The notes beneath the pieces were generated by a model, which saw nothing but the letters and a program-made list of their open reading frames with translations, had not been told where the DNA came from and made no database searches. Below are positions 14,201 through 58,834 of a stretch of 64,000 nt of DNA, one piece after another. Positions within the stretch are counted from its first letter, which is position 1; each line of letters begins with the position of its first letter. This DNA comes from Lingula anatina (Eukaryota > Animalia > Brachiopoda): NCBI GenBank assembly GCA_051362555.1, contig CM120640.1, positions 66,380,788 through 66,444,787 of the forward strand, read 5' to 3'. The position numbers were made by a program, and so were the translations under genes.

Positions 14201-15461
14201 TGATGATATTTTTTCCTGAAATTTGAGAAAGACAGGTGGTGTTTGATATGAAACTTAATTTAAAAATTTCACATAAAATACCTTTAAAACCTTAAATATT
14301 GCTAAAAGTCATGATCACTACCAAAAATACTTGTGTAATGTTCCTGGCAGAGGTTAAGTTTGGAGAAATGGTTTTACAACATCTGAGGCATGATAAGAAA
14401 ACATTCTCAAAAAGTTCTGAAATTTTGCACAGAGAAAAGCAATTACCAATATAAAAATTATATGATATTAAGGTAAACGAGGAGTTCAGTTTCTGTTTAA
14501 CTCATTTCAGGAACTCTCCATACTGATGAGGAAATTCTGGAGTTTGCTAAATTGGGCACATACCTAGAGTATGATCTGTTTGGTATAGAAACATCCAACT
14601 ATCAATGCAACCCGACTGTTGACATGCCTTCTGATGGGGAGAGAATAAGAAGAATCCAGGTGCTATTTGCAAATGGTTTTGACAAAGTGGTGATTGCACA
14701 TGATGTGCACACTAAGCACAGACTGGTAAGTATGATTACAATCTATTTTATTCAAGCAGTGAAGTCTTATAGCTTCCAACAGTTGAGGTGTGCTGCCCCC
14801 CCCCCCTCCATCCCCTACACACACACACACGCACACACACACGCACGCATGCACGCACACACACACACTCCATTCAAACTGTTATTTTGACTGTTTTGTG
14901 GTGATGGCTTTTTATCTCAAAACACCAACACTGTAGGTAAACTAAATTAAAGAAAAAACAAGTATTTCTATCAGCCCCTCTCTTGAAGTAGTTTGATAAT
15001 ATTTTCGGTTTTTGTAGAATGCCATTAAAATGTAACTTAACGAGAACTACATTACACTATTAAGTACAAGCGTATTTGGAAAAACTGTTTGTTCACATTT
15101 TTTCTGTGTATTTTACAGTTTTTAAGACTTTAATTTAAACATTTTCATCATGGTTTTGCTACTATTTACAATAGGAATGATTTTAAAGAAAATTATCAAA
15201 CACAAGCCAAAAAACATTTATACTGTTACCGTTAGTTAGTTTTGGCTTGTATTTTATAATTTTCATTTATGGTCCAACTACCAAGCTAATGAACATTTTT
15301 GATCAGCAATGATTTTGTTTGTCTAGGTGAGGTATGGTGGTCATGGGTTCACGCACATCCTTAGCAACGTGCTGCCACAAATGCGTCGTCGGGGTGTGAC
15401 CCAGGAGCAGATTGACAAGATGTTGATTGACAACCCCAGGGAGTGGCTCACTTTCCTTTAA
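8247..15461 (+). CDS. PTER: Phosphotriesterase-related protein, copy 1 (350 aa, 8 exons)
   Basis: Exons 8247-8277, 11371-11530, 11728-11806, 13041-13152, 13349-13504, 13855-14019, 14511-14725, 15327-15461; all GT-AG and in phase. Begins [13 protein letters not shown] and carries the metal-site motifs [27 protein letters not shown] and IAHDVH, ending DNPREWL. Confidence 0.95.
8591..8658. repeat. Short palindrome in PTER copy 1 intron 1
   Basis: CCTCAGTTTTCGGCCTTACATG ... CATGTGAGGCCGAAAACTGAGG; one arm is repeated directly at about 8446-8472. Confidence 0.6.
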
Positions 15462-20000: not shown

Positions 20001-22875
20001 CTCTCTGATCCTCTAGTTAAGATTTATTGTATTTTATTAATTTTTACTGGCCAGTCATTTAGAATGTTGTGTCTTCCTGCACATTTCAGATGTCAGGTGC
20101 TTTTTATAAGAGGTTTTATAGTTTCTAAGGTCTCAATTGGGAAAGATTACTTATAGTAGGCTTGCAGGATTTGCAGACACAGAAAATTTCTTTGGGGAAT
20201 TTTTTAATTCATATAGCATACCTTTAATATCAGATACATACTAAACTGGTAATACAGTTGACAGCCAGAAAGAAGTTATTCAGATATGGAACTGACTGAT
20301 TTATCAATGATATGTGATATTTATGATGATGAATTATACATTTTTACTTCAGATACAGCCACAAACCTAATCTGATTTATAATGATGATGATAGTCATGA
20401 AGCAGTTATCCAAGAATTGAAATACTTTAAGGTAAAGTATCAGTCTTTACCACACACATCAATGTTAGCCACACATGGTCAATATCAGCGCAGCCAAAGT
20501 TGAAAAAAACTGCAGCAAGATATTTATGTAGATTTTCAGAGACCATACAAAATAATTTTGACTCACTGTAGAATAAGGGCAAAATCAAGTTTATCAGTAT
20601 GAGTTACTTTCAAAATCCTTGTATTTCATATGAGAGAAGTTCATTCATCTTATAATGAAAAATGGATGGTTGGTATCTGGTATGGGGTAATGTTGACTAA
20701 TTTGTTGCTATTGTTGTTTTGTTTTTCTCTGCTATTCAAGGAATGTGGCGGAGGAACAATAGTTGAAAACACCACCCATGGCATCACTCGTGACATGCGT
20801 TATCTGAAGAGAGCAGCAGAGGAATCTGGAGTGAACGTCATAGCAGGATCAGGTAAAACTTTTGTAAGAAACTGGGATCTGATCTGTGCTAAATTCATCT
20901 ATTGATATTAAATGATCTACATATTAACCAAAGAGTTGGCATTTACAGAAAAATTTTTTGGTATATTTTTTGATGAGGATCTTATGCTGCATTCACAACA
21001 GCAGACTAAATAGTCTGCCAATCAGATATTGCAACCCATTTAAAAGCTTGCTGCATGGTCTTCTAATAGACACTAAATAGACTTCCTACGGGGATTACGC
21101 AACAAGCATTCAAGTGAGTCTGCCATATTTGATCCATGTCGCTGTTAGTCCAGTTTTGAATGTGGCCATAGTGTGGCTTTCGATTGAAATTGATCCTGTT
21201 CTGGTTTGGTTCTGAAATAATAATGTGCACGTTATTGTTACTCTCTACTTGAACTGTCAACTTTAAAATGTGTATTTTAATAAAATAATTCAGTGCTATC
21301 TTTTATATAACTTTCACATTTCACTTCTTCCATCAAGGATACTATGTTAGTGCTTCACACCCATCTCAGATGGATGCAATGAGAGTAGAAGACATTGTGG
21401 AGGTGATGAGAAATGATTTTCTCACTGGCTGTGATGGGACAGACATCAAGTGTGGAGTCATTGGCGAGATTGGATGTTCCTGGCCTTTACATGGTAATTG
21501 GAAATAAATATAATTAAACATATATATATACTAAATTAAATGTATTTCTTTTCTTATTTTGTTATGGTGGTTATGATTGTTAATCCAAGGCAAAATGTCA
21601 AATTCATCTTACAGGCAAAATAATGAGCACTAAGATTTTCAAATGATTGTAAGGAAAATAGGAACACCATAAGTTATTTATTTATTTTTTAACTTTACTG
21701 AAGTATTATATTCAAAAGTTGGTATGCAATTATTCCTTATCAGACAATGAAAAGAAAGTTCTCAGGGCCACTGTAGAGGCTCAGACCCAGCTTGGCTGTC
21801 CAGTTATCATCCATCCTGGCCGCCATCACGAGGCCCCGTCGGAAATTGTCCGCCTGTTGCAAGAGGAGGGCGGAAATACTGGGAAAACTGTCATGTCTCA
21901 CTTGGACAGTAAGAAAACTAGTTATATCCGCCACTCTCTCTCTCTCTTGTTTCCCCAAGTTAAATGTACAAAAACATCCAATGAGAAAATTAATTACCCC
22001 CCCCCCCTCTCTCTCTCTCTCTCTTTGGTTTGACTAATTAACAATAGCATGAATAGCACATCAGGGGCGGATTTAGGGCGTCTTCTGGGTCTTCCGGAAG
22101 ACGGTCAGATTTTTAAGTTAACATTGACAGGTATCCAATTTTTTCTGTCGGAAGACGGTCAAAAATGGAGGATGGATCAACAAAGATAATTTGGAAGACT
22201 GTCAGAAAATATCTCTGGATCCGTCCCTGCACATCATGAGAAAACTAATTACCTTCTCTCTCTCTCACCATCATCATTATCGGGTTTCTTTTAACTTTTA
22301 GGAACATTGCATGCTGATGAACTGTTGCTTGACTTTGCCAAGATGGGGACTTATTTGGAATTTGACCTATTTGGTTTTGAAAATTCCAATTACCAAACTA
22401 ACCCTGCCGTTGATATGCCTGGTGATGGCGAGCGTATTCGCAGAATTAAAATTCTCTTTGACAACGGTTTCGATAAAGTTGTGATATCACATGACATGCA
22501 TTTCAAGCATAGACTAGTAAGTGATGCATGACTCTTTTAAATGTTTTATACATTGTAAGTGTTTTTCACTGGAAATCTATCAAAAATGTAGGACACATTA
22601 GGCAAGAGACAAGTACATGTACTCAGAAACTCTAGATTTGAGGTAACTCATGCATTATTGCTTTACGAAATAATTAATGGGTTACATATTCAGGGTGTTT
22701 TTTATGAGGAATAAAATATAAATTAAATGCAATGTTCCAGATAAAATATGGTGGACATGGCTACACCCATATTCTTCGCAATGTGCTGCCGCAGATGCGT
22801 CGTCGGGGTGTGACCCAGGAGCAGATTGACAAGATGTTGATTGACAACCCCAGGGAGTGGCTCACTTTTCTTTAA
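17033..22875 (+). CDS. PTER: Phosphotriesterase-related protein, copy 2 (exons 2-8 intact; no own exon 1 seen)
   Basis: Exons 17033-17192, 20353-20431, 20741-20852, 21338-21493, 21744-21908, 22302-22516, 22741-22875. Exon lengths match copies 1 and 3, there are no stops, and HTHEHL, IGEIG, IHPGR, MSHLDR and SHDMH are retained. Confidence 0.92.
17516..20018 (+). mobile_element. Helentron-associated non-autonomous element (HINE/DINE-1-like), copy A
   Basis: 5' TTATTGTACCACCAGCG followed by a partial inverted repeat and a (CCGCCGGCT)-type microsatellite; internal 146-bp tandem units; 3' subterminal inverted repeat GCTGGTGGTACAA; hairpin GAGGCG-GTAT-CGCCTC; ends CTAGTT; no target-site duplication seen. 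Confidence 0.85.
22062..22229. mobile_element. MITE with CAGGGGCGGAT-type TIRs and 5-bp TSD (CACAT)
   Basis: cacat|CAGGGGCGGAT ... ATCCGTCCCTG|cacat; a related end lies at about 7810-7842 in the opposite orientation. Confidence 0.7.
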
Positions 22876-23175: not shown

Positions 23176-26100
23176 TTATTGTACCACCAGCGTTAGCGCT
23201 GGCGGTACACATGGTTTCGGTCCCGTCCGGATCGTTCCGCCGGCTCCGCCGGCTCCGTTGGCTCCGCCGGCTCCGCCGGACGGCTACCGTTACCGCTTCT
23301 CCTCCTAGACGGTAAGGGCCCCCGTACCCATCTCATGGATTTAGGTCACCTATAATCTCAACTCGTTCCACGTAAAATTTGGGCTTTGTCGGTATTGGGG
23401 TCTGGGTGTGGCACTCATTGCAATGCACCCTTGTCTAAAAATGGCAAAATTAAATGCTAATTATCTACCCTACGGAAGGAGTTATGGGAAAAATTTCTAT
23501 AGACGGCTTTCCAAAAGTCATATGTGTAGATTTCAAATATACCCTTGGATTTGACCTTTGACCTCTACTTCAAGGTCAAATGGGCCAAAATTTTCAAAAA
23601 AATGAAATTTTTTACGAAAAAAATTTTTTTTGCCCTGTTATTCAGACACCACACAGACTTAACCAATAATATTATTGGAAAGTGTTACCCTTCAGGTCAT
23701 CTTTTATCTCCATGAATTTGGGGTCAATTGGTGCATTTTCACGGGAGTAGCGGCCATAAGATACTGAAACTGAAAACTGTCTCTAATTCGGGAACCGTTA
23801 ATGCTAGAGACCCATTCTTTTTTGCATTTTGTAGAGCATGTAAAGCCCAACACTGGAGGTGGTCTCGGTTTTTTTGTATTCCATACGGTTTTCGAGTTAC
23901 GCTGTATCAAAAAGTACATATTGGTGGTAAAAGCAAAATGTGCAGTACGGTAATGGATAATAAATTTTGAACTCTGGAAAAATAAAACATAAGGCTTGGC
24001 AAAGCAGACAACTTGTGTTCAAAAATGACATTATTTCATCAAATTTGAACTTCTGAAACTTCAGAGCACCTCCTATTTCAAGAATTTTGACCAAAATGAC
24101 ATTTTCTTTATTTTAATTAATTTTTTCTGTACGAAATTTAAGGCACATTATGGTAACTCCAAAATTATAACATCTAGTCCCTTATATCTCCAAAACTGGC
24201 AGAGATAGGTCCATAGTTACTATTGAAGTTGAATAGGAAGTCATATACTGGCAATCTTACTATGACCTTGAAATTGACCTTTGACCTACTTTTCACCATG
24301 AACTGAACTTTGCAAATTTTTCTTCCCTTTTATCTCCAAAACTGGCAGAGATAGGTCCATAGTTACTATTGAACTTGAATAGGAAGTCATATACTGGCAA
24401 TCTAAATGTGACCTTTAAATTGACCTTTGACCTACTTTACACCATGAACTGAATTTTGCAAATTTTGCTTTCCTTTTATCTCCAAAACTGGCAGAGATAT
24501 GTCCGTAGTTACTATTGAAGTTGAATAGGAAGTCATATACTGGCAATCTATATGTGACATTAAAATTGACCTTTGACCTACTTTTCACCATGAACTGAAT
24601 TCTGCAAATTTTGCTTTCCTTTTATCTCCAAAACTGGCTGAGATAGGTCCGTAGTTACTATTGAACTTGAAAAGGAAGTCATATACTGGCAATCTAAATG
24701 TGACCTTATAATTGACCTTTGACCTACTTTTCACCATAAACTGAACTTTGCAAATTTTTCTTCCCTTTTATCTCCAAAACTGGCAGAGATAGGTCCGTAG
24801 TTACTATTGAAGTTGAATAGGAAGTCATATACTGGCAATCTAAATGTGACCTTAAAATTGACCTTTGACCTACTTTACACCATGAACTGAATTTTGCAAA
24901 TTTTGCTTTCCTTTTATCTCCAAAACTGGCTGAGATAGGTCCATAGTTACTATTGAACTTGAATAGAAAGTCATATACTGGCAATCTAAATGTGACCTTA
25001 AAATTGACCTTTGACCTACTTTTCACCATAAACTGAACTTTGCAAATTTTGCTTCCCATTTATCTCCAAAACTGGCAGAGATAGGTCGATAGTTACTATT
25101 GAACTTGAATAGGAAGTCATATACTGGCAATCTAAATGTGACCTTGAAATTGACCTTTGACCTACTTTTCACCATGAACTGAACTTTGCAAACTTTTCTT
25201 CCCTTTTATCTCCAAAACTGGCTGAGATAGGTCTATAGTTACTATTGAACTTGAAAAGTAAGTCATATACTGGCAATCTAAATGTGACCTTAAAATTGAC
25301 CTTTGACCTACTTTACACCATGAACTGAATTTTGCAAATTTTGCTTTCCTTTTATCTCCAAAACTGGCTGAGATAGGTCCGTAGTTACTATTGAACTTGA
25401 ATAGGAAGTCATATACTGGCAATCTAAATGTGACCTTAAAATTGACCTTTGACCTACTTTTCACCATAAACTGAACTTTGCAAATTTTGCTTCCCTTTTA
25501 TCTCCAAAACTGGCAGAGATAGGTCCATAGTTGCTATTGAACTTGAATAGGAAGTCATATACTGGCAATCTAAACGTGACCTTGAAATTGACCTTTGACC
25601 TACTTTTCACCATGAACTGAACTTTGCAAACTTTTCTTCCCTTTTATCTCGAAAACTGGCTGAGATAGGTCCATAGTTACTATTGAACTTGAAAAGGAAG
25701 TCATATACTGGCAATCTAAATGTGACCTTAAAATTGACCTTTGACCTACTTTTCACCATTAACTGAACTTTGCAAATTTTGCTTCCCTTATATCTCCAAA
25801 ACTGGAAGAGATAGGTCCATAGTTACTATTGAAGTTGAATAGAAAGTCATATACTGGCAATTTAAATGTGACCTTAAAATTGACCTTTGACCTACTTTTC
25901 ACCATTAACTGAACTTTGCAAATTTTGCTTCCCTTTTATCTCCAAAACTGGCAGAGATAGGTCCATAGTTTCTATTGAACTTGAATAGGAAGTCATATAC
26001 TGGCAATCTAAATGTGACCTTATAATTGACCTTTGACCTACTTTTCACCATAAACTGAACTTTGCAAATTTTTCTTCCCTTTTATCTCCAAAACTGGCAG

Positions 26101-29019
26101 AGATAGGTCCGTAGTTACTATTGAAGTTGAATAGGAAGTCATATACTGGCAATCTAAATGTGACCTTAAAATTGACCTTTGACCTACTTTACACCATGAA
26201 CTGAATTTTGCAAATTTTGCTTTCCTTTTATCTCCAAAACTGGCTGAGATAGGTCCATAGTTACTATTGAACTTGAATAGAAAGTCATATACTGGCAATC
26301 TAAATGTGACCTTAAAATTGACCTTTGACCTACTTTTCACCATAAACTGAACTTTGCAAATTTTGCTTCCCATTTATCTCCAAAACTGGCAGAGATAGGT
26401 CGATAGTTACTATTGAACTTGAATAGGAAGTCATATACTGGCAATCTAAATGTGACCTTGAAATTGACCTTTGACCTACTTTTCACCATGAACTGAACTT
26501 TGCAAACTTTTCTTCCCTTTTATCTCCAAAACTGGCTGAGATAGGTCTATAGTTACTATTGAACTTGAAAAGTAAGTCATATACTGGCAATCTAAATGTG
26601 ACCTTAAAATTGACCTTTGACCTACTTTACACCATGAACTGAATTTTGCAAATTTTGCTTTCCTTTTATCTCCAAAACTGGCTGAGATAGGTCCGTAGTT
26701 ACTATTGAACTTGAATAGGAAGTCATATACTGGCAATCTAAATGTGACCTTAAAATTGACCTTTGACCTACTTTTCACCATAAACTGAACTTTGCAAATT
26801 TTGCTTCCCTTTTATCTCCAAAACTGGCAGAGATAGGTCCATAGTTGCTATTGAACTTGAATAGGAAGTCATATACTGGCAATCTAAACGTGACCTTGAA
26901 ATTGACCTTTGACCTACTTTTCACCATGAACTGAACTTTGCAAACTTTTCTTCCCTTTTATCTCGAAAACTGGCTGAGATAGGTCCATAGTTACTATTGA
27001 ACTTGAAAAGGAAGTCATATACTGGCAATCTAAATGTGACCTTAAAATTGACCTTTGACCTACTTTTCACCATTAACTGAACTTTGCAAATTTTGCTTCC
27101 CTTATATCTCCAAAACTGGAAGAGATAGGTCCATAGTTACTATTGAAGTTGAATAGAAAGTCATATACTGGCAATTTAAATGTGACCTTAAAATTGACCT
27201 TTGACCTACTTTTCACCATTAACTGAACTTTGCAAATTTTGCTTCCCTTTTATCTCCAAAACTGGCAGAGATAGGTCCATAGTTTCTATTGAACTTGAAT
27301 AGGAAGTCATATACTGGCAATTTAAATGTGACCTTAAAATTGACCTTTGACCTACTTTTCACCATTAACTGAACTTTGCAAATTTTGCTTCCCTTTTATC
27401 TCCAAAACTGGCAGAGATAGGTCCATAGTTTCTATTGAACTTGAATAGGAAGTCATATACTAGCAATTTAAATGTGACCTTAAAATTGACCTTTGACCTA
27501 CTTTTCACCATGAACTGAATTCTGCAAATTTTGCTTTCCTTTTATCTCCAAAACTGGCTGAGATAGGTCCGTAGTTACTATTGAACTTGAATAGGAAGTC
27601 ATATACTGGCAATCTAAATGTGACCTTAAAATTGACCTTTGACCTACTTTTCACCATAAACTGAACTTTGCAAACTTTTCTTCCCTTTTATCTCCAAAAC
27701 TGGCTGAGATAGGTCTATAGTTACTATTGAACTTGAAAAGGAAGTCATATACTGGCAATCTAAATGTGACCTTAAAATTGACCTTTGACCTACTTTACAC
27801 CATGAACTGAATTTTGCAAATTTTGCTTTCCTTTTATCTCCAAAACTGGCTGAGATAGGTCCGTAGTTACTATTGAACTTGAATAGGAAGTCCTATACTG
27901 GCAATCTAAATGTGACCTTAAAATTGACCTTTGACCTACTTTTCACCATAAACTGAACTTTGCAAATTTTGCTTCCCTTTTATCTCCAAAACTGGCAGAG
28001 ATAGGTCCATAGTTGCTATTGAACTTGAATAGGAAGTCATATACTGGCAATCTAAATGTGACCTTGAAATTGACCTTTGACCTACTTTTCACCATGAACT
28101 GAACTTTGCAAACTTTTCTTCCCTTTTATCTCGAAAACTGGCTGAGATAGGTCCATAGTTACTATTGAACTTGAAAAAGAAGTCATATACTGGCAATCTA
28201 AATGTGACCTTAAAATTGACCTTTGACCTACTTTACACCATGAACTGAAATTTGCAAATTTTGCTTTCCTTTTATCTCCAAAACTGGCTGAGATAGGTCC
28301 GTAGTTACTATTGAACTTGAATAGGAAGTCATATACTGGCATTATAAATGTGACATTAAAATTGACCTTTGACCTACTTTTCACCATAAACTGAACTTTG
28401 CAAATTTTGCTTCCCTTTTATCTCCAAAACTGGCAGAGATAGGTCCAAAGTTACTATTGAACTTGAATAGAAAGTCATATACTGGCAATCTAAATGTGAC
28501 CTTGAAATTGACCTTTGACCTACTTTTCACCATGAACTGAATTTTGCAAATTTTGCTTCCCTTTTATCTCCAAAACTGGCTGAGATAGGTCCATAGTTAC
28601 TATTGAAGTTGAAAAGAAAGTCCTATACTGGCAATCTAAGTGTGACCTTGAAATTGACCTTTGACCTACTTTTTATCATGAACTGAACTCTGCTAATTTC
28701 TTTCTCTTTTAACTTTAAACTTGACAGAGATAGGTCCATAGTTACTCTTGAACTTGAATAGGAAGTCATATACTGGCAATTTACTGTGACCTTGAAATTG
28801 ACCCTTGACCTACCTTACGAAGAACTTAAATTTGATTGTACCATATATATTTTTTGCAATAGTTTAAAAATTCTTGTTGATTGCATTTTTACAGCTTGTC
28901 AAGCACAAAACTGGCGGCTGTGTCCCTTATTTTGTGTATGTGGGGGTCTATACGAATGCGTTTGCTCCAGCTGGTGGTACAATATTTGGAGGCGGTATCG
29001 CCTCTCTGATCCTCTAGTT
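23176..29019 (+). mobile_element. HINE-like element, copy B, with greatly expanded internal satellite
   Basis: Same 5' (about 1 kb) and 3' (about 210 bp) modules as copy A; inserted about 300 bp after the PTER copy 2 stop codon. Confidence 0.87.
24180..28812. repeat. Tandem satellite array, 146-bp monomer, about 32 units
   Basis: Unit TTATCTCCAAAACTGGCAGAGATAGGTCCATAGTTACTATTGAACTTGAATAGGAAGTCATATACTGGCAATCTAAATGTGACCTTAAAATTGACCTTTGACCTACTTTTCACCATGAACTGAACTTTGCAAATTTTGCTTCCCTT. Period measured as 146 in copy A (18611 to 18757); repeated ORFs here are spaced 438 and 1314 bp apart. Confidence 0.97.
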
Positions 29020-33600: not shown

Positions 33601-35124
33601 GTAGATTTCAAATATGCCCTTGGATTTGACCTTTGACCTTTATTTCAAGGTCAAATGGGTCAAAATTTTCAAAAAAACGAATTTTTTTACGAAAAAAAAA
33701 TTATTTGCGCTGTTATTCAGACACCACACACACTTAACCAATAATATTATTGGAAAGTGTTACCCTTCGGGTCATCTTTCATCTCCATGAATTTGGGGTC
33801 AATCGGTGCATTTTCACGGGAGTAGCGGCCATAAGATACCGAAACTGAAAACTGTCTCTAATTTGGGAACCGTTAATGCTAGAGACCCATTCTTTTTTGC
33901 ATTTTGTAGAGCATGCAAAGCCCAACACTGGAGGTGGTCTCCGTTTTTTTGTATTCCATACGGTTTTCGAGTTACGTGGTATCAAAAAGTACATATTGGT
34001 GGTGAGAGCAAAATGTGCAGTACGGTAATGGATAATAAATTTTGAACTCCGGAAAAATAAAATATAAGGCTTGGCGAGGCAGACAACTTGTGGTCAAAAA
34101 TGACATTATTTCATCAAATTTGAACATCTGGAACTTCAGAGCACCTCCCATTTCAAGAATTTTGACCAAAATGACCATTTCTTTATTTTTATTATTTTTT
34201 TCTGTATGAAATTTATGGCTCATTATTGTAACTCCAAAATTATAACATTTAGTCCCTTATATCTCCAAAACTGGCAGAGATAGGTCCATAGTTACTATTG
34301 AACTTGAATAGGAAGTCATATACTGGCAATCTAAATGTGACCTTGAAATTGACCTTTGACCTACTTTTCATCATGAATTGAACTTTGCAAATTTTGGTTC
34401 CCTTTTATCTCCAAAACTGGCAGAGATAGGTCCATAGTTACTATTGAACTTGAATAGGAAGTCATATACTGGCAATCTAAATGTGACCTTGAAATTGACC
34501 TTTGACCTAATTTACACCATAAAGTGAACTTTGCAACTTTTTAATGCTTTTATTTTCAAAACTGGCAGAGATAGATCCATAGTTACTATTGAATTTGAAT
34601 AGAAAGTCATTAGAGGCAATTTACTGTGACCTTGAAATTGACCTTTGACCTACTTTTAACCATGAACTAAACTTTGCAAATTTTGTTCCCTTTTATCTCC
34701 AAAACTAGCAGAGATAGGTCCATAGTTACTATTGAACTTGAATAGGAAGTCATATACTGGCAATCTAAATGTGACCTTGAAATTGACCTTTGACCTACTT
34801 TTCATCATGAATTGAACTTTGCAAATTTGGTTCTGTTTTATCTCCAAAACTAGCAGAGATAGATCCATAGTTACTATTGAACTTGAATAGGAAGTCATAT
34901 ACTGGCAATCTAAATGTGACCTTGAAATTGACCTTTGACCTACTTTTCATCATGAATTGAACTTTGCAAATTTGGTTCTGTTTTATCTCCAAAACTAGCA
35001 GAGATAGATCCATAGTTACTGTTGAACTTGAATAGGAAGTCATATACTGGCAATCTAAATGTGACCTTGAAATTGACCTTTGACCTACCTTACTATGAAC
35101 TGAACTTTGATTGTACCATTTTTA

Positions 35125-35221
<97 letters not shown>

Positions 35222-37890
35222 CCGTGATTTCAGAATTTTTTTTTTTTTTTTTTGCATATTTTGAGGATTCTTGTTGATTGCATTTTTTACAGCTTGTCAA
35301 GCACAAGACTGCTGGTGGTGTCCCTTTTTTTTGTGTGTGGGGGGTCTATACGATCGCGCTTACTCCAGCTGGTGGTACAATATTCGGAGGCGGTATCGCC
35401 TCTCTGATCCTCTAGTTACTAAAAGCCTTCAGTTCATGTCTACAGAGAACGTCGAAGTTTCATTACTTCCTTCTGTGTTTGTAAGTATTCTTTTTTTTTT
35501 TTTTTTTTGTAACTTGTGTCAATAAAATTGGTTTTTCTTTGAATGTGTTATGTACATATACATGTAGTTGTGTGAGTGTACATTCGTGCATTGATAAACA
35601 AAAGCGAAAATTCCACGATTTTTAAATAGATACAGCAACAAACCAAACATGATCTTCAACGACGATGCTACACATTCTGCCATACTTGAGGAAACGATAA
35701 CGTTTAAGGTAATACTGTGCTTTTGATGAAAAGAGTAAAAACAAAAGACCCGTTCTTTTGATAACTATTTGTATGCCTACTGGTATACTGTGTAGCCTAT
35801 TAATATGACATTTCTGAATTTAAACACTTTATAATTTATAATTAAGTTATTGCGATTCATTTAAATTACGTGTAGCTTTTGAAATAGACCGTTTTCGTTT
35901 CTTTTAAGGGTTTACTTACATGAACTTAGTTTATTCACGACCTATTGTTTACCATATGGATTTTACCTGTATATTATGTTTCGTATCACTATATTATTAA
36001 ACTTATTTCAGCGTCTCGGTGGAGGGACTATTGTAGAAAATACAACTGGCGATATGCTTCGCAACGTGGAATTCATGAAAAAACTTTCTGAAGAGACGGA
36101 TGTTCACATTGTAGCTGGAACCGGTACATTTTACCTAGACAAATCTAAAATTAAGTTTTACTATTTTTGAGTTCTTCAGTAAATGTGTTCTAGTAGTTCA
36201 GCGTTAGTTCATAGATAGCAAATTGATATGATCCTAAATTTTGTCGATTTTGAAAATGTCTCTACTCTCCTTTCACCCAGCAGATATTTTGTAACGCAGG
36301 TTTCTACTTGGAATCAGTTCACCCCAAGGGTATGGATACCTTTAAGGTGGAGGATATAGTAGAGATGATGAAAATGGACTTTCTGGTCGGATGTGACGGG
36401 ACAGACATCAAGTGTGGAGTTATAGGAGAAATCGGATGCTCTTGGCCATTACATGGTATACAATAGTGATACAGGTCTAGTTTTCAGATTCAGTTTTAAT
36501 TTCTTTTTTCATTAGCTTGTCACATGTATTATCTATTCGTTTATTATTACTGTATTCCATTTTTTCTTTGGGTGTGTGTGGTTGAAGAGGGTGGTCTCAT
36601 CATGCACAATTGTAAACAATAAAGTAATTGATATTCTTTAAGGATTACTGTGTTTTTCTTATCGACCGGCAGAATTCAGATTTTAACAAAATCCAGACTT
36701 CTATTTTAAGAAATGAAGTAATTTAGAATTTTAACTTTCATTTTTTAAAATGAAAGTTCCGTCCCAAAGTTAAGAGCTATTTGTTGCGCTCCAGTAAATG
36801 AAAAGAAGTGCCTGTTGGCCACGGGGGAGGCTCAGGCGGAACTTGGCTGTCCTGTTATCATCCACCCTGGGCGCCATAGCCAGTCCCCAGCCGAGGTCGT
36901 CCGAATATTACAGGAGGCCGGAGGAAACGCTGAACATACCGTGATGTCACATCTGGACAGTAAGGGACCGTTCACAATGTATTTGTCGACGTAGTTTATG
37001 AGCACTAACTCCACGGGGGCTCCGCTGGGCGCTACCAGAATAGACTAGTTAACACGCCTCCTCTTGTTTCCAACGTACTGGTATAATAACCAGGTTTTCT
37101 ACGTATTCTCTACTCAACGCCAGAACTGTCTTCTCAATTTGTTTCGGATGCTTATGTACATTCTTATGTCAACTACATAGACGCAGTAAACACCTTTTCA
37201 AGGCTAATCTTAAATTTACGATCATATCCAAACATCAATTCTACCTAACTAGTTTCAATAATAATGGCACATAAAACAACACATAAATATATTTTCTGTT
37301 AGTCAGTTAAAAAAAGACGGTTTGTTTGCCAAATAAGTTTATATGTCCGTCTTATTTCATAAATGATATTCTTTTACATTTACATTTAGGAACTTTCCAT
37401 AATGACGAGGAACTATTGGAATTCGCGGGACTAAGAACCTATCTAGAATATGATCACTTTGGTATTGAGATAGCGGACTGGCAGTGCGACCCGACCATCG
37501 ACATGCCAAACGATGGAGAGAGAATACGCAGGATAAAGAAATTGTTTGCCAATGGTTTTAACAAGGTGGTGATCGCACACGACTTGCACGCCAAGCATAT
37601 GCTGGTTTGTTCATTCAACTCCTTGGTTTATTTAAAAATAATCATGTTTTGGGAAAATTCGTCTATTATACTACCTGCTAAACCTCCTGATCATCAATGT
37701 TATATGCGAAAATGTCCACAATGAGTTAAAAAATATCTTAATTAATTTATTTCAGCAAAGGTATGGTGGACACGGGCTGACACATATTCTGAAGAACGTT
37801 TTACCGCAAATGAAGCGCCGTGGAATCAGCAGTGAACAGATCAACACGATGCTGGTGGATAACCCAAGGGAGTGGCTGACAATGATATAG
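30686..37890 (+). CDS. PTER: Phosphotriesterase-related protein, copy 3 (350 aa, 8 exons)
   Basis: Exons 30686-30716 ([10 protein letters not shown]), 33031-33190, 35630-35708, 36012-36123, 36300-36455, 36795-36959, 37390-37604, 37756-37890; motifs [26 protein letters not shown] and IAHDLH are intact. Confidence 0.95.
30966..31048. repeat. Small inverted-repeat element with a second partial copy at about 37049-37100
   Basis: ATTAACACGCCTCCTC ... GAGGAGGCGTGTTAAT; a reverse-complement copy of the right half lies in PTER copy 3 intron 6. Confidence 0.6.
32445..32630. mobile_element. Palindromic MITE-like element, with a relative at about 31075-31245
   Basis: CGGTCCATCTCCGAGGGGATTCTTACTAAATTGCACTCAA ... 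TTGAGTGCAATTAAGCGAGAATCCCCTTCGAGATGGACCG; the core CCTACT..AAGCTGT.AGGGGGTA...TAACTAT is shared with about 31150-31183. Confidence 0.6.
33278..35417 (+). mobile_element. HINE-like element, copy C (about 6 satellite units and an expanded TA tract)
   Basis: Same termini and modules as copies A and B; satellite at about 34255-35090; (TA)n at 35128-35218. Confidence 0.87.
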
Positions 37891-47641: not shown

Positions 47642-48475
47642 AGTGACTGTAACAGTTGAAAACGTTACAACCTTAAAGTTAAACAAATACACACTACATT
47701 TATTAGGCGTCAAGCACGTCAAAGCGTGTAACATGTTAATAGGCTAAACGTGCTTAGGTGCTAAACGCGTGGAAAAAATGAGACAAAACAGGCGCTTAGA
47801 AATGTGTCTCAGAGCTAAACACTGTTTTTACACTGTAGGATTGTGATATGATTGGATTTACTGTGGAATTTCATATAAGCAGAATAACTGTGTAATATCA
47901 TGAAGGCAGGGTGTTTGGGCATTAGCTCTCTACTATTAACACAAATTTACCCGTATATGCAGCGCAAATGTGTTTATCTCTCTTCAGGTAGGATGACGCT
48001 AATATATTTAACACACACCTGACGGTAGACATTTTGCAGTCGAAGAGGGCGTTCAGGTAAATACAAATTTATTGTGATGAAATTATAAAAGGTTCAATTT
48101 CTACAGAAATATTACATGTACTACAGAGATCAATTTCTTTCAGAACGGTATTATTGAATTATTGTTCGGACACAATCATAGGGTATGCAAACAAGATAAC
48201 TTTGCAGGACCCGATTATATTATTCATATTGTTTAGGCTAAATTCTTTTAATATCACGGGAAAAAATTTAAGATTGTAGTATTAACATGACTAATACCAG
48301 ATAATTCAAACTAATCCATTGGCTACAAGATCTCAGAGATAGGTAGACGATTCTGTGCCATGAAAGATCAACTTTCTCTTAAATATGAAATAAAAACTAA
48401 CTGTAATTATGTATTTATTCCTGAACATCATTGTATTTAAACTGGTAAATTTATTTATTTATTTGTTGTTACAGC

Positions 48476-49618
48476 ATGTCTGCAGTAGGATATCAGCAGT
48501 CCATACGGTTTCTGGGCGGGATTTGTATTGTTTTGCTTGTTGTTATGTTGGACCTCATATACTTTAATGGATCAACGCCGCAACTGAATAGAAAAGGAAT
48601 GAACGTTACTGTGCCTCAGTTTAAAAAATATCAGGCACGTGTATGTTCTCTGGACTTTTTACGGAACTACTTCGTGAAAACCGGACGCTTTTTTGGAGGT
48701 GGGAAATGGGTGAATGATAAATGGTGGCCAAAAGATTGCATGATGCCTAAATACCTTAGCCCTGAACAACTTGCACCTTGTTTAGTAAAGAAAAACATAA
48801 AGAAAATAGGGCAAGTCGGAGATTCACAATCTATGCGGTATATGGCAGCTATAAAACGGGGTGAAAATGCTTATTCGTGTAAATTGTTAAAAAGTGAAAG
48901 CACGATGTCAAGATCACCAGCTCCAAGTTACTTCAGCCCTCCTCTTGACCCCAAGTCCATACGAGTAGCCAGCAGGGACTGTAGCGGGTGTGCCGGACAG
49001 CTTGTTCGCTGTACACCTCAAGGTAGCACAGAAACGACTGACATTGAAGTGTTAATTACGGAATATACTAAAGACCATGAAATATCTACAAAAAGAAATG
49101 CCTGGAAACATGAGTGCGACGACAGGCTGAAGAATATTAGTGGAATATTTTGTCAAGAGTCGATGACAACGCAAGAGGTGTATTTCCGTGAATACTGGGC
49201 TCTTTCTGGATACCCAGATGTAATCATTATATATGCTGTTCACGCCCACGAGGCACAAAAGCGACGGCCAAGTGATTTTAGACGTGATTTCACTTGGTTT
49301 ATAGACCTTGTCGTTTCTGTGGTGCCAAAAACAACAAAGATTTTATACTGGAACTCCCCGCAGGTTAATTCTGCCAAACAACCAGTCTTTTGGAGAAATA
49401 TCACTGCCAATACATACATCAGCCAATTAAATGCAGTAAGCGCATCTGTGATAAAAAAATTCATCATTGAGAAAAAGGTAAATAATTTATACCCGATGTT
49501 TGACTTATATGGAATATCTAGGGACGTCATGAAGTGGATTGTAGATGGAGTTCACTTCTCGGGTCCGTGGTACAACCAAATTATCACGCTGTTTTGGACA
49601 ACTTTATGTGCAGATTAA
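48476..49618 (+). CDS. Type II membrane SGNH/PC-esterase-like protein (NXPE/TBL/CASD1-like acyl-esterase or acyltransferase fold), 380 aa, single coding exon
   Basis: Long ORF preceded by acceptor TTACAG|C-ATG; N-terminal hydrophobic anchor; G.W...W.P..C motif; catalytic-type GDS (VGDSQSMRY) and C-terminal DGVH. Probable non-coding exon at about 47988-48056. Confidence 0.85.
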   Translation: MSAVGYQQSIRFLGGICIVLLVVMLDLIYFNGSTPQLNRKGMNVTVPQFKKYQARVCSLDFLRNYFVKTGRFFGGGKWVNDKWWPKDCMMPKYLSPEQLAPCLVKKNIKKIGQVGDSQSMRYMAAIKRGENAYSCKLLKSESTMSRSPAPSYFSPPLDPKSIRVASRDCSGCAGQLVRCTPQGSTETTDIEVLITEYTKDHEISTKRNAWKHECDDRLKNISGIFCQESMTTQEVYFREYWALSGYPDVIIIYAVHAHEAQKRRPSDFRRDFTWFIDLVVSVVPKTTKILYWNSPQVNSAKQPVFWRNITANTYISQLNAVSASVIKKFIIEKKVNNLYPMFDLYGISRDVMKWIVDGVHFSGPWYNQIITLFWTTLCAD

Positions 49619-51025: not shown

Positions 51026-53182
51026 CACTACAGTGTTAAATTTATACTGTCCATATACTATTCCTGTAGTTAGCAATGATTGCAAATACTTGAGCGTTTT
51101 TTTCTGTGAAACTACAAACAAATTTAATAGTCTTTTCTGTACAAAACGATTTAACTTTCAATTTGAAAAAAAAAAACATTTTTCTCGGGGTAATAAGGGA
51201 AAATGTTTAAAATGGAATATGTACACGGTAAAAGTATACAACTAAAAAATTTCCAGTAGACGGTAGATACCACTGAAGCTACAGGACTAAGGGTGATGTA
51301 TACTCCAATTATCAGAGTTGTATGAATTATATATAATCGCCTTGTAAATTATGGTTATTCAAGAGAGGGTCATCACCTCTCTGTGTATCTAACCAGCTGG
51401 ATGCAGGTATGTCACCAGAAGATTAGTATGTTACACCATATAGCCGCGAGCACTCAAATGTAGGTGTTTTATATTAATAACGACTTTGAAATAATGTGGA
51501 TGTAATCCGTGTAGATAACAGGAGGTTGGCAACCTGAATGTTAGTAGAATGACCTAGTTAATTGTGGTTTATATGCTTTTTTTTGTTTTAAACTCTAACG
51601 ATAATTTTGAGACAGTTGAAGACGTTTCCAACATCTGTATAATATTCAATGGCCAGCATTTTTATATAAAAAAAAATTGGTAAAATACACTTATGATCAA
51701 ATATGTTATCCTTCCTGCTTACCGACGAATTCAAGTGAAATTATTATTTTGAAATATTATTGGTTTCAAATAAAACTGCACTGTTGTCACGCCTAAAGTC
51801 TTGTAATGGACCACGTTATCTCTGTCCTACCCCAACATGCATACTACATTATAAACCATTCAGACAAGGCGTGGTCCAAACTTGTTTCTTTACACATGCA
51901 ATTCATAATGATTTAATGTGTGACAAGTAGAAAGAAAGCTGAAATATTTATGCTACAGTCTGGTGAGCACCAACAAACCCCTTGTGTTTAAACCACGTAA
52001 CACATGTATGCGTGCATCGACCCGAAACATCCAATCAATTCGAGGAGTTCCTCCATGACACAGACATTTTTTACGGCTCAGGTAAGTTCACCTAAAATTT
52101 ACTTAAAGGTGGAATATTTTCCTTGAGGCTTATAATTGTCATCTTGGCAATCTTTGACTGACTCAGAATATCAATATCAGTCACACAGGTTTTCCTTGCC
52201 TTGAACAATGTTTCTAGTGTTAGCAACAGGTACACACAAATAGATTTCCCCTCATTATTCGTGGAACACTTAACCCAGTGGACAAATATTGCAGTAAACA
52301 AACTTATGTAATGCTGTTGACGCCTGATCGATATTTCTGTGCCAAATATTGGCACTTAACAACTTGTGTATTATTTTCAAGGGACGCCCTTGCTGCTGTA
52401 AGAGCCAGTCAAGGGCAAAGATTATTCATTTACCTTTCTGTAACACATTGAGATAAGCGGCATTGTTGGCAGTATACAGCACATGATCCTTCAGGTTGGT
52501 ATCACTTCAACCTTTATTAATATTATATTATAATGATTGAAGTTCTGAGATAATAACTTAAATAAGCCGCTACGTATAAACGAAGATGAAAAATGTATTA
52601 ATATACACGAAAGAGATAATTCTAAATAAAATGAACATGTTGTGCATCAAGTGGCATTAAGGTTGTCATATTTAAATGAGATTTAAAAGGATATTTACTT
52701 CAGTTTACAGAGATAAGAGCTCTTCATTTTGGCGGGAAAAGTGCCATAAAACGGATTTTTTCGGGGTAAAGGACGATTTCCCATTTTTGCCGATGGATAA
52801 TTAAACCCTTCCGACATTAAAAATTACAATATAGTCGATTTTTTTAAATTGTATTTTTGTAATAATCTCTTAAGAAATCATGAGAGAGGGTAGCCATACA
52901 TGAAGGTCCACGAGGTCTGATGACAAGCATAGATTTTCAGAATAATTGCGATAACCCCCTGTAGGTGGTAAAAGGGAGTTTATTATATTACTATGTGTTG
53001 TTTACAATGTGCCCGTATGAATTGTGGAATTTTGAATCCATATGAAGAGTTGCTACCCCCTCTGGGATCGTACAGGTATTTTTCCGTTTTAATAGTTCTT
53101 TATAAGTTTTATATATGGAACATATTCGTTGGAACAGAAGAGTAGTAAATTTGATATTCTCGTTTCAGATATAGACGCTACC

Positions 53183-54451
53183 ATGCAGTCCCAAGACAAG
53201 CTGCCATTTCCAAAATGCTCCTTCTTCATTGTAGCTTCCATAATGCTCGTTTTCATCTTGATGTTAACTTTTCGCTGTAACAGCATTCAAAGGACGGCGC
53301 CTGAATTTGTTGGGATCAATATAGATGTTAGAACTCAATCACCACACAGTATATTTAAACCTGAGTTTGTTACGTTCAATACAGATGTTAGGACCAGACC
53401 ACCAGGCACCATCACTGCCAACACTGCCACCAAAACCTCCAAGGAAATAACCAAGCATGTTTCAAAGACTCGAAATTGTTCCTTATTGTATCTTCAAAAC
53501 TACTTGGCAGAAAAGGGGCGGTTTTTTGGAGAAGGGCAGTGGGTCAAGGGCCAGTGGGAACCGAGAAGTTGTCAAGTGCCTGAACGAGTGAACGCTGAAC
53601 GGCTGGCTCAATGTCTTACAGCAAAGAAGATAGAAAAAATTGGAATCCTTGGTGACTCTCAGTCCATGAGGTATGCTGCAATGATAAGAACAGGAGAAGG
53701 TGCGTTTCAGTGTAAGAAAACGAAAGCCGAAAATGGCGGGAACAGATCACCGTCCATTAATTTCTTTTCTCCACCAATTGCAGCTAATGATTTGCGAGCT
53801 ACCACACGTGACTGTTTAGGTTGCGCCGGTTTACAGGCCACTTGTACGTTTGGGAGTTCGAAAAATTCCGTGATTAAGATCGAAAACATGATTACGGAAA
53901 ACGTTAAGGACAGTGAACTAATCACACGGAGAAGTTCGGTTTAAAAAAATTGTGACGATCGGCTTACGAATAAAACTGGCATTCCGTGTCTAGAGTCTAG
54001 TACCACGCAAGAGGTGATATTTCAAGAGTACTGGTGCCTTGACGGCTACCCAGATGTGATCATCGTGTTTGCAACTCATGTCCACGAAGCTGTGAAGAGA
54101 AACGCCAGGAATTTTGAGCGAGATTTTACGTGGTTCGTCGATCTTATAACAACCGTGGTGCCCAAGACTACCAAGATTCTTTATGTGAATGCACCCAAGG
54201 TGACTCCACCACAGCCAGAAGCATGGAAGACTGAAGGTCGAAATATTTTTATAGATGAACTCAACAAAATAGCAGCGGCTGTGATTCATCGGTCAATAGT
54301 GGAGCGCAAGGTGCCAAATCTGTACCCGATGTACGATATGTTTTCTATGTCTGTAGATCGAAATGTCTGGAATGGAGATGGCGTACATTTCAAACCACAG
54401 TGGTACAAGCATGCTGCGTCCTTACTGTGGACTACTTTGTGCATGGACTGA
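53183..54451 (+). pseudogene. Paralog of the 48476 SGNH-like gene with one in-frame TAA at 53942-53944 (422 codons if read through)
   Basis: ORFs 53129..53944 and 54014..54451 are in the same frame and align continuously with the upstream paralog (LGDSQSMRY, RDC.GCAG, CDDRL, TTQEV.F.EYW, GYPDVII, DGVHF, WTTLC.D). Confidence 0.7.
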
Positions 54452-55338: not shown

Positions 55339-56388
55339 TTACAGGCACTTGTATGTAAAACGTCCTGGATGTTTGTAGCAGAAGCGTGAACAGCACTGGA
55401 CATCAAAAGTGCACTTAAAACAGGAAAAAAAACATCAATGTATCCTTAAGGAATGAAATTGAAACCGTTTAAAATTATGTCTCCTCCGTCCCTCTATGTT
55501 TCAAGGTTAAGTACAGATGAACTAAATATAAAAGTGTATACATTAAAATAAAAATGAGACAAATACATTATAGACTAGTTTGTTCTGAAATTTGGCCCGC
55601 GGTGGACCGTTCTTTATTATGAACGCCACCCTGCTAATCTGATAAGAACATTTCTACAAATTATTTATGTCAAGTTCACATTGACTTGTTAGCGTGTCCA
55701 CTTACAGGACTATCTACAGTAAAGCAGCGGTCTTCCCCGGCCTCAGGAGCCGCACATCTGTACACTCCGTAACGCACGCGGTGACAGTAGCCGGAGCAAC
55801 AGTGGGAGTTCCACGAACACTATAATAAAATATAGTACTAGGTTACTTAAAGCAATATGCAGTGTCAAAAAAACGAGCATGGGTATTACAAATCAACGGC
55901 ACTCGGTGCTTGTTGTTTAGACGCATATTTGACTTTTAATCCTACCTTTTCACCATCAGCTGCACACCCGTTGCCATGGACACATCTGTAGACGCCGTAG
56001 GTTTCTCTGTGACAGTACTTTGAACAACATCTTGCGTTAGACCAACACTAGAGGAAAATCGAAATGAGTTAATGTTAATGAAGAAATGGGCATTTATATG
56101 GAAAAATAATAAATTTAAACATGTTGCAAAATGCAACAATCGATGTTTTTTTTTTCAAGTACAATAAATTCGTGTCCATTAATTTTCCCTCTCGCATAAA
56201 CGTGCATAAAGTCTATTATTATGATTAATTATATATAAAAATGACGAGAGTTTTAGATTTTTAAATTCGCAGTCACTATCATATGATTTTACCAGTTGCC
56301 CCCCTCGTATACACTGTTGGGTCATGGCGGCGTCCAACGTTCCTACCAGTGCCCAGCAACCCAGGAGTAGTGCAATCACGTAACTCAT
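55339..56388 (-). CDS. Secreted cysteine-rich protein with three tandem knottin/ICK-pattern domains (128 aa, 4 exons)
   Basis: Exons 56388-56293, 56047-55946, 55819-55706, 55413-55339, all with phase-0 GT-AG introns. Protein: MSYVIALLLGCWALVGTLDAAMTQQ-CIRGGQLCWSNARCCSKYCHRETYGVYRC-VHGNG-CAADGEKCSWNSHCCSGYCHRVRYGVYRC-AAPEAGEDR-CFTVDSPCTFDVQCCSRFCYKHPGRFTYKC-L*. Confidence 0.9.
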
Positions 56389-57616
56389 CTCGTCAGATCC
56401 AACACTCTACGTTAAATGTAAGGGTCTACCTATGTAAGAAAATTTCGTCTTCTCTATTTTCTCTTTTCTAAACAGCAAAGACTAAAAAGGTATATTAGAA
56501 GTGACGTTTTAGCTAGGTCCCTCCCTCGTGTAATCGTAGGTCGAATGACTCAGTGATGTCTTTTCCTTATGACACGGTTTTAGCAGGTGCATTAAATAAT
56601 TAAAATATATTAAGGTTAAGTCTTCGGATAGATAAAAGCCAATTCTTTAAAATTTGCAGAAAAGTGGTATGGTGCGAGATCGAAGACAAAAATGTACTGG
56701 TCTGAGGGATATAAGAAATAAGCTGAATTAAACCGAATTTGAATTGATATTTGATTAATTTTCAAATATAGATTTTTTTATCCACACGCCTGACCCTTAG
56801 TCCTGCTTTAATATAGCTAGTTAAATCTTGAAACAAATCATGCTAAATTGGATTTAGCACTGGACGCAAATAAACCCTAGTCCAGTTTTAAATAAGTCTT
56901 AGAGAAGTTTTTTTCACGAAAATTAATACAGGACATTTACAACACAATGAGGGACAAAGACACCTTCCAACACCATTCACACACTGGGAAATAGTGATTA
57001 AAAATACATGTAGAAATTTTTTAATAAAAGAATCTTAGTAGGCTTAGCCTATGACAAATGTTCTTTTCTATTCATATGAAAATTTTTCTATATACTTTTC
57101 CATTTTTTTCTTAGATCAACTACCTTTTGAGGACCCAGAAGGTATAAAGACTGAAAATCTATTTTTTTGATTTCCAAATTCTTTCGGCAGGCTAGAGAAG
57201 TTAGACTGTTGAACCAAGTGTGTGTAGTAATTTACAGTATGGGTCGCGTGCGCTAACCCCTGCACAACAAAATTTACACGACAAAGCACAAAAGCCTTCT
57301 TCAGTCTCAGCCTCTAGCTATTACCGTACCTACATCCTTAAAATAAAATCTTTTTGACACAATGATTTTTCCCAGCCGCTGCATATGGAGCTAAAGTATG
57401 GAGTTCCACTATATTTAACCAAGGAGTTATAACAGATCTGTTATAAGTCCTTGATTTAACGATAAATCGAAAATAGAAAAAAAATACATCTCCATTTTTG
57501 CCAGGAGCAATTGGGTGAACTCAAAATGTTGTAGTTATGCTGTTCGGGCGAAACTTGGGCGCCTGCCAAGCTACACAAAAATTCAAATACATGTAATTAA
57601 ATACTGAGTCAAAATT

Positions 57617-58030: not shown

Positions 58031-58834
58031 AAAAAAATGCCAAAATTATTTTACTGAAATTTAGATATTAACATTGATAATACTAACATGAGCGATCTTA
58101 GTATACAATTACATCGTATACTTAGATAGCTCATGTTTGAACCGACGTCATTGTGTTTGTTGTGCACGATACCACCCCCAAAATAATTTTAACAAATGTG
58201 TCACAGCAAGCGCATTGCAGAGCGATTTCTACACTGATACGACAGCGTCCGCCACGCTTACAAATATGAACGAAGAAAAAAAGTCCCTAAATGCAAATTG
58301 CTACTCCATATGTTCTGTTTAATATATATCTATACATTCTGAAGCAAATTTAGCACCCAGTTTCAGTGATTTGACTTTGAAACAATTTCCAATCTCTTAC
58401 ATGTTCTATGTTTTCACTGAGGGTAGAGAGTGGTCGGTCAAAACTTATTGCATAATGTTAGTCTAACTCCTTTATCCAAATAATGCTAGGATTTTTATTG
58501 CATTAATCTCAATAAACAATTCTCAGGACAAAAACTTATAATCAGAGCTTAAAATACTTGTATTTAGAGGGAGATATAAAATAAATGAAAATCTCTTTTT
58601 TAAAAGGTTCATGATAATAAACTGAATTACTTCCTATAATATGCTCATACGGTTCTAAAGACTTACATGTAACAGGAGGGCAATCTAGTGCACAAATATG
58701 AAATTGCATGTCTAAGGCTAGACCTAGCTTTTGTCAGCTCCCGCTGGCCCGGGGTTATGTCATAAATATAAAGGCATACAATTCTTATGAATTAAGTAGG
58801 AGGTGTTGATATACCAATGTTCCGATCGAGTGAA

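What the first reader, a model, noticed from the sequence alone, without database searches (positions are those of the whole stretch)
55339..56388. Hidden triple-knot gene: signal peptide plus three tandem ICK-pattern domains
Seen: invisible in the ORF track, four phase-0 exons encode a signal peptide and three C-x6-C-x5-CC-x3-C-x9/10-C units joined by 5- and 9-residue linkers without dibasic cleavage sites. Each intron falls just before the second Cys, showing exon-module duplication; units 1 and 2 share YCHR..YGVYRC. Known: C-C-CC-C-C is the inhibitor cystine knot framework of O-superfamily conotoxins, spider toxins and antimicrobial knottins, and bivalent double-knot spider toxins (DkTx, Hi1a) gain avidity from tandem domains. 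Inference: a trivalent knottin acting as a toxin, antimicrobial or glycan-binding defence protein.
Basis: partly seen in the sequence, partly recalled or inferred. Interest (0 to 1): 0.85.

Follow-up and report, generated by a model that had tools for sequence, protein, structure and literature searches.

The report
Three-knot secreted protein in lamp shell
A four-exon gene of the lamp shell Lingula, already in RefSeq under the misleading name 'fibrillin-2', encodes a predicted secreted protein of three predicted cystine knots in a row, each split by an intron, that likely serves host defence rather than venom; chains of such knots are common in other organisms.

Summary
Four minus-strand phase-0 exons with GT-AG introns translate, exon by exon, to RefSeq XP_013380302.1 of Lingula anatina (128 of 128 residues), which is misnamed 'fibrillin-2'. 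The gene is real but not hidden. One RNA read pair in 8 runs has the depth pattern of the exon 2-3 junction; the other two junctions were not seen. An alignment-based AlphaFold2 model (pLDDT 83.6, pTM 0.39) gives three independent knottin-like domains whose nearest structures are mostly ICK peptides (Z at most 3.2; disulfides not read). The protein passes Pfam UPF0506. Tandem knots are common: 52 of 63 relatives have three or more units (myxobacteria, flies, a choanoflagellate), and a triple-ICK spider toxin is in print. 'Uncleaved' is unsure, because linker 2 ends in a spider-type single-Arg processing motif. The distinctive point is that every knot is split by an intron at the same place, whereas funnel-web spider double knots lie in one exon. 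Function is untested; best guess is a cationic multivalent host-defence binder (0.4). New member of a known kind; interest 0.32.

The parts
56293..56388 (-). Exon 1: ATG, predicted signal peptide (about residues 1-20, contains Cys11), then first Cys and first loop of knot 1 (residues 1-32)
   Evidence: identical to residues 1-32 of XP_013380302.1; hydropathy at least 2.0 for 9-residue windows starting at 1-8
56048..56292 (-). Intron 1, 245 nt, GT..AG, phase 0, between Cys I and Cys II of knot 1
   Evidence: sequence; junction not seen in RNA
55946..56047 (-). Exon 2: Cys II-VI of knot 1, 5-residue linker, Cys I and first loop of knot 2 (residues 33-66)
   Evidence: partly covered by the read pair of run X9
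55820..55945 (-). Intron 2, 126 nt, GT..AG, phase 0
   Evidence: one read pair in X9 leaves bin 55876-55936 empty and gives 0.16 depth (2 reads x 5 nt) in bin 55815-55875 (my inference from bin depths)
55706..55819 (-). Exon 3: Cys II-VI of knot 2, 9-residue linker ending in a PQM-like single Arg, Cys I and first loop of knot 3 (residues 67-104)
55414..55705 (-). Intron 3, 292 nt, GT..AG, phase 0
   Evidence: sequence; junction not seen in RNA
55339..55413 (-). Exon 4 coding part: Cys II-VI of knot 3 and TAA (residues 105-128)

Best explanation
The four exons encode the Lingula protein XP_013380302.1, predicted to be secreted and predicted to fold as three separate cystine knots on short linkers, which likely acts as a protease-resistant, multivalent host-defence protein that would bind microbial surfaces through its cationic, aromatic hairpins. 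Shown: gene structure, identity to the RefSeq protein, cysteine pattern, duplication of units 1 and 2, net basic and aromatic composition. Weakly shown: splicing of intron 2 (one read pair). Predicted: signal peptide, knottin fold, independent domains. Inferred: I-IV/II-V/III-VI disulfides, avidity, and a defence role; knot 3 may be cut off at the single Arg. The gene likely grew by tandem duplication of a knot that already held an intron between Cys I and Cys II, leaving two internal phase 0-0 exons.
For: Gene and fold. With a 52-row alignment the model rose from pLDDT 52.7 to 83.6, at least 90 for 76 residues, while pTM stayed at 0.39, i.e. beads on a string. Unit 1 aligns with Aps III (1.6 A, 32 residues) and Sth1a (0.9 A, 27), unit 3 with SOTI-III (1.1 A, 31); nemertide alpha-1 matches at 0.9 A, target TM 0.81, E 4.6. 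Function (indirect only): mature chain pI 8.55, 14 K+R against 8 D+E, 14 F/W/Y in 108 residues, every unit basic; antifungal knottins are among the weak hits (Alo-3 E 0.4 by sequence; Alo-3 and PAFP-S by fold). Lingula is a filter feeder with no known venom apparatus (my own knowledge; the genome paper PMC4595640 has 0 occurrences of 'toxin' in its main text). No propeptide follows the signal, unlike spider ICK toxins (PMC13172734, PMC4881942), and no paralog lies in the 64 kb window or showed up in the protein searches, unlike expanded venom families.
Against: No result separates defence from other functions. The best sequence hit in the PDB is a toxin, DkTx (E 0.017), and most fold hits are venom peptides; no Foldseek hit reaches E 0.001 and the best Z is 3.2. 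Expression was almost nil: 1 read pair in about 84 million records from 8 runs; 7 of 8 runs were blank with no control showing the organism in them, and tissues are unknown. A constitutive defence protein might be expected to be abundant. Flatworm UPF0506 relatives are a parenchyma marker, secreted by a tapeworm or bind IGFBP1 in a primary screen, none of which is antimicrobial. Disulfide pairs were not read from the model, and AlphaFold2 was trained on ICK structures.
Confidence: 0.4

Rival explanations
1. A multivalent ion-channel ligand like DkTx, Hi1a or Xt3a: either a deterrent toxin in mucus or an endogenous neuromodulator like honeybee OCLP1.
For: Top PDB sequence hit is DkTx (E 0.017, residues 45-77); double-ICK toxins Xt3a, Hi1a and DkTx appear in the fold lists; Pfam omega-toxin and conotoxin families score below their cut-offs (E 0.006-0.02); toxin-like ICKs exist in non-venom tissue (PMC3737499; PMC13172734).
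Against: The matches rest largely on cysteine spacing; no venom system is known in brachiopods (own knowledge); no propeptide; no local gene expansion; very low RNA in the runs laid.
Confidence: 0.2
2. An extracellular binding or matrix protein (chitin of shell or chaetae, a receptor ligand, gamete or developmental signalling) with no defence role.
For: Most relatives with three or more knots look like surface or scaffold proteins (myxobacterial lipoprotein-like chains, a sulfatase fusion); Dickkopf-1 aligns over 60 residues (Z 3.0, 2.3 A) and colipase appears; schistosome UPF0506 is a parenchyma marker; low RNA fits a tissue- or stage-limited role.
Against: Dickkopf and colipase matches are weak (E above 0.2, Z 3.0); Atlas scores are all under 0.9; no anchor or further domain in the protein.
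Confidence: 0.22
3. A multi-headed protease or other enzyme inhibitor like the knottin SOTI-III.
For: Unit 3 aligns best with SOTI-III (1.1 A over 31 residues; Foldseek probability 0.94, target TM 0.76, E 1.2); tandem inhibitor heads are typical of SCREPs (PMC6262176).
Against: Only 24-32% identity; a shared fold shows no function; I did not test for a reactive-site loop.
Confidence: 0.12
4. A decaying or barely used gene with no current function.
For: 1 read pair in 8 runs; no ortholog found in other brachiopods or lophotrochozoans with a name.
Against: All 18 mature cysteines, the frame and six splice sites are intact although the introns share no similarity any more, which implies long selection on the exons.
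Confidence: 0.06

Closest known systems
RefSeq XP_013380302.1 / UniProt A0A1S3H2X9 ('fibrillin-2', Lingula anatina)
   Same: Identical, 128 of 128 residues, with the same exon boundaries implied.
   Different: The name is misleading: Pfam finds no EGF or TB domain at E up to 10, and the protein is 128 aa. No paper in the library cites either accession.
Pfam PF11703 UPF0506 (flatworm double-knottin proteins)
   Same: 29.0 bits against a cut-off of 23.2, three stretches; small secreted tandem six-cysteine units.
   Different: Three units instead of two; last loop of 9-10 residues against 9 and 4, and linkers of 5 and 9 against 2, in the tapeworm motif (10.1101/2020.02.03.932509). The model also passes a Myxococcota protein and a mosquito protein, so the hit shows cysteine pattern, not orthology.
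Multivalent ICK venom toxins: DkTx, Hi1a/Hc1a, Xt3a (double), U1-Pm2A (triple)
   Same: Tandem ICK units on short linkers; weak sequence and fold matches; a triple form is in print (PMC13172734).
   Different: In the funnel-web spider genome the whole mature toxin lies in one exon and the repeat arose inside it (PMC13172734); here an intron splits every knot. No propeptide, no venom gland, no activity data.
Unnamed four-unit protein P0002 (best non-self hit, E 1.8e-17) and fragments P0081, P0082
   Same: Same 9-residue last loop and 5-residue linker ending G-N-G; 39% identity.
   Different: Four near-identical units in one open frame with no intron between them; organism not on record.
Tandem-knot repeat proteins of Myxococcota, Diptera and a choanoflagellate (P0004, P0006, P0018, P0012, P0033, P0061)
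   Same: Same C-x6-C-x5-CC-x3-C core, 5-13 strict units each.
   Different: 231-1403 aa, lipoprotein-like, long-linker or enzyme-fused; identity to the query 35-39%, much of it cysteines, so common descent is unproven.

Membership tests
Inhibitor cystine knot (knottin) fold | C-C-CC-C-C framework with ICK spacing | tested here: met
   three strict units
Inhibitor cystine knot (knottin) fold | Small fold with a C-terminal beta-hairpin that superimposes on solved ICKs | tested here: inconclusive
   model pLDDT 83.6 with hairpins 44-54, 78-88, 116-127; rmsd 0.9-1.6 A to ICKs for units 1 and 3, 4.2 A for unit 2 alone, but Z at most 3.2 and no Foldseek E under 0.001. Consistent, below the tools' bars.
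Inhibitor cystine knot (knottin) fold | Disulfides I-IV, II-V, III-VI with III-VI threading the ring | not testable with these tools
   the structure tool returns no coordinates or bond list
Pfam PF11703 UPF0506 | Score above the gathering threshold | tested here: met
   29.0 against 23.2 bits
Pfam PF11703 UPF0506 | Two-repeat flatworm motif with a 2-residue linker and 4-residue last loop | tested here: not met
   three units, linkers 5 and 9, last loops 9/9/10 against the motif printed
Multivalent ICK venom toxins (DkTx, Hi1a, Xt3a type) | Two or more ICK domains kept in one mature chain | tested here: inconclusive
   three units, no dibasic site, but linker 2 fits the single-Arg PQM; processing unknown
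Multivalent ICK venom toxins (DkTx, Hi1a, Xt3a type) | Signal-propeptide-mature precursor with the mature region in one exon (funnel-web spider genes) | tested here: not met
   first mature Cys at residue 26; an intron in every knot against PMC13172734
Multivalent ICK venom toxins (DkTx, Hi1a, Xt3a type) | Venom-gland expression and ion-channel activity | not testable with these tools
   tissue of the runs not given; no assay
O-superfamily / I2 conotoxins | Pfam family score above cut-off | tested here: not met
   PF02950 16.3 against 25.1; PF17557 16.6 against 27
Fibrillins | EGF, cbEGF and TB domain arrays in a very long chain | tested here: not met
   128 aa; none among the 7 Pfam families listed at E up to 10
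Antimicrobial knottins (Alo-3, PAFP-S; tachystatin recalled) | Growth inhibition of, or binding to, microbes or their wall polymers | not testable with these tools
   only composition and weak hits

The most novel reading that the evidence does not exclude
Probability: 0.08. Interest if true: 0.7.

Novelty: new member of a known kind. Interest (0 to 1): 0.32.

Why it matters
It corrects a misleading annotation ('fibrillin-2') and adds a compact natural three-knot protein from a phylum in which my searches found no described knottin. Multivalent knottins are sought as drug leads (PMC13172734, PMC6262176), and at about 12 kDa this one is easy to express and test. [quoted passage not shown] It is not a new kind of system: tandem knots are widespread, and nothing here shows a function.

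Tried and rejected
Whole-genome search: none held for this window, so paralogs elsewhere in Lingula were looked for only through protein searches; single-knot paralogs shorter than 70 aa were not searched. Run search: no RNA holder listed; 8 of the 9 runs offered by species label were laid (X3 not). Seven were blank with no organism control, which is no test; no joint reached the tool's 3-read bar. Single exons gave no Pfam hit. The single-sequence fold was poor (pLDDT 52.7) and its Foldseek list is only a lead. Atlas: all scores under 0.9. Intron-intron similarity: none (120-445 of 500 shuffles reach the score); exon 4 is not significantly like exons 2 or 3 at DNA level (243 and 265 of 500). 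Metagenome scan: 1 of 221 candidate stretches confirmed, a bacterial tandem-knot gene. My lipobox pattern (36 of 63) is too loose and is not used. The match of the 9-residue loop and 5-residue linker to the commonest geometry among hits is partly circular, since the hits were chosen by likeness to the query; gene transfer from myxobacteria was considered and is not claimed. Rejected: fibrillin, conotoxin membership, chance motif. Literature searches without a paper on this protein; no paper on myxobacterial knottin repeats among the 12 of 65 listed. The SCREP paper's supplements, which may list this UniProt entry, could not be read. Earlier findings: none near this place, by sequence or by words.

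Full report
Observation. The region is AT-rich animal DNA (GC about 0.35) and shows no ORF of 100 aa or more at the finding. Exons are GC-richer (0.44-0.58) than introns (0.26-0.34). The 18 cysteines after the signal region form three C-x6-C-x5-CC-x3-C-x9/9/10-C units with 5- and 9-residue linkers, and exons 2-4 each open on the second Cys of a unit. The core motif occurs 3 times in the window against 0.01 on average in 100 resampled windows.

Identity. A search with exon 3 returned one protein, P0001: RefSeq XP_013380302.1 / UniProt A0A1S3H2X9, 'fibrillin-2', Lingula anatina, alone in its 90% cluster. Each exon matches it without a difference. So the gene is already modelled in RefSeq; that is agreement between two predictions, and I could not see RefSeq's own evidence. 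The name is wrong in substance: of 7 Pfam families at E up to 10, only UPF0506 passes its cut-off (29.0 against 23.2); omega-atracotoxin, conotoxin and colipase families fall below theirs, and no EGF or TB domain appears.

Expression. No RNA holder was listed; nine runs were offered by species label and eight were laid. Run X9 gave one read pair (95-99% alike). Its depths are 1.28, 2.0, 0.16, 0 and 1.43 in the 61-nt bins from 55693 to 55997, about 297 bases in all: 0.16 equals two reads of 5 nt up to the exon 3 edge at 55819, and the next bin is empty, so both mates skip intron 2; the first mate lies on +, as expected for a minus-strand RNA if the library is stranded. This is my reading of bin depths and one molecule; the tool lists no joint. 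The other 7 runs were blank, without a control for the organism. Junctions 1 and 3 are unseen.

Fold. Folded alone the protein gave pLDDT 52.7. With alignment A2 (P0001 plus 51 of the 63 hits; rows chosen by me, leaving out those without clean repeats or with long linkers) it gave 83.6, with pTM 0.39: three confident domains with no fixed packing, each ending in a hairpin. Against 48,161 chains, 17 reached Z 2, best 3.2; by my recalled classification 13 of the 17 are ICK peptides, among them Aps III and Sth1a on unit 1 (1.6 and 0.9 A), SOTI-III on unit 3 (1.1 A) and the double knots Hi1a and Xt3a; Dickkopf-1 (Z 3.0), LEAP-2 and Draxin are not. Foldseek had no hit at E 0.001; its 26 rows are mainly ICKs and colipase. 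By sequence the PDB gives DkTx (E 0.017) and Alo-3 (E 0.4). The knottin reading is well supported by pattern and consistent with the model, but disulfides were not read.

Relatives. HMMER over 1.84 billion representatives gave 63 non-self hits at E 0.001; 52 of 63 hold three or more strict units, up to 13. I looked up 20 of the 63: 7 clusters carried an organism, namely Myxococcota, Myxococcales, Sorangium and Deltaproteobacteria, the flies Lutzomyia and Uranotaenia, and the choanoflagellate Stephanoeca (a sulfatase fused to 13 units). The best hit, P0002, is unnamed, has four units in one frame and shares the G-N-G linker. No named lophotrochozoan ortholog and no Lingula paralog appeared, and none lies in the window. 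UPF0506 also passes a Myxococcota and a mosquito protein, so it marks the pattern rather than a lineage.

Gene history. Units 1 and 2 share 17 of 29 residues, unit 3 only 8 and 10. Exons 2 and 3 share 44 of their first 66 nt (0 of 500 shuffles), the introns nothing: an old duplication under selection. Since the intron is inside the domain, each internal exon is a permuted knot (Cys II-VI, linker, next Cys I). Its 3' end is not better kept between exons 2 and 3 (7 of 21 nt) than between exons 1 and 2 (10 of 21), so duplication of a whole intron-containing domain explains the gene at least as well as exon duplication; the numbers are small. Either way exons 2 and 3 are symmetric and could be skipped in frame (inference, untested). 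This differs from funnel-web spider double knots, which lie in one exon (PMC13172734).

Processing. No dibasic pair and no N-glycosylation site. Linker 2 ends G-E-D-R, which fits the processing quadruplet motif, Arg with Glu among the three residues before it (PMC4881942); only 1 of 289 units among the hits is preceded by such a motif. The motif is known from spiders and its use in brachiopods is not shown, but an intact trimer cannot be assumed.

Function. Nothing measured here gives it. The chain is basic and aromatic (pI 8.55; 14 K+R, 8 D+E, 14 F/W/Y), single-copy locally, without propeptide, in a filter feeder with no known venom (own knowledge). I put host defence by multivalent binding to microbial surfaces first (0.4), then extracellular ligand or matrix binder (0.22), ion-channel ligand (0.2), enzyme inhibitor (0.12) and decaying gene (0.06). 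That the gene is real and encodes three knottin domains I put at about 0.9.

Papers. Read as passages around search terms: PMC13172734 (plus its whole Discussion), PMC6262176 (supplements unavailable), PMC5357004 (not relevant), 10.1101/2020.02.03.932509, 10.64898/2026.06.27.734962 (primary screen only, validation not read), PMC3737499, PMC4595640, PMC4881942, PMC11288129, 10.1101/2020.02.03.932004, PMC5223471. They show double ICKs in spiders, a remipede and flatworms, and a triple one (U1-Pm2A) in a tarantula. Searches for Lingula or brachiopod knottins and for the two accessions found no relevant paper; the library lacks most subscription journals.

Verdict. Real, annotated under a wrong name, a new member of the known class of secreted tandem-knottin proteins.

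Noticed in passing
P0003-P0064 (many), L001:1066-2340: A large set of Myxococcota-type proteins with a short N-terminal leader and up to 10 strict tandem C-x6-C-x5-CC-x3-C knot-like units; in L001 the gene follows a TPR-like gene and lies near a Ser/Thr kinase-like gene (both judged by eye). No paper on them among the 12 of 65 listed. Possibly of more interest than the finding itself.
   Followed up: partly
P0061: Choanoflagellate (Stephanoeca) sulfatase fused to 13 tandem knot-like units.
   Followed up: partly
P0002, P0081, P0082: Unnamed family closest to the Lingula protein; P0082 looks by eye like a signal-peptide exon read through an intron into the knot region, so probably a eukaryote gene called as a bacterial ORF.
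   Followed up: partly
P0012, P0033: Dipteran secreted multi-knot proteins whose long linkers repeat an N-R-F-G motif, a possible processing or binding signal.
   Followed up: no
window 48449-49618 and 53096-54451 (+): Two tandem long-exon paralogs (51% identical over 328 residues) of a membrane-anchored protein with G-D-S and D-G-V-H motifs, SGNH-hydrolase-like by my recall, no Pfam hit; the second has an in-frame TAA at 53942-53944.
   Followed up: partly
window 14501-14890 and 37311-37724 (+): Exons of at least two phosphotriesterase-family (PF02126) genes; further likely exons at 12780-13202, 20603-20905 and 21662-22033.
   Followed up: partly
window 24724-28417 (-) and 34795-35121 (-): A tandem repeat giving near-identical 111-codon frames five times, with a related copy further on; similar repeats at 23704-24018 and 33779-34093.
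   Followed up: no
window 82-762 (-): Exon of a sugar-transporter family gene (PF00083).
   Followed up: no
window about 56430 (-): A pyrimidine-rich AG about 40 nt upstream of the ATG suggests a further, non-coding first exon.
   Followed up: no
window 57414-57459 and 58085-58137: Two short imperfect palindromes upstream of the gene.
   Followed up: no
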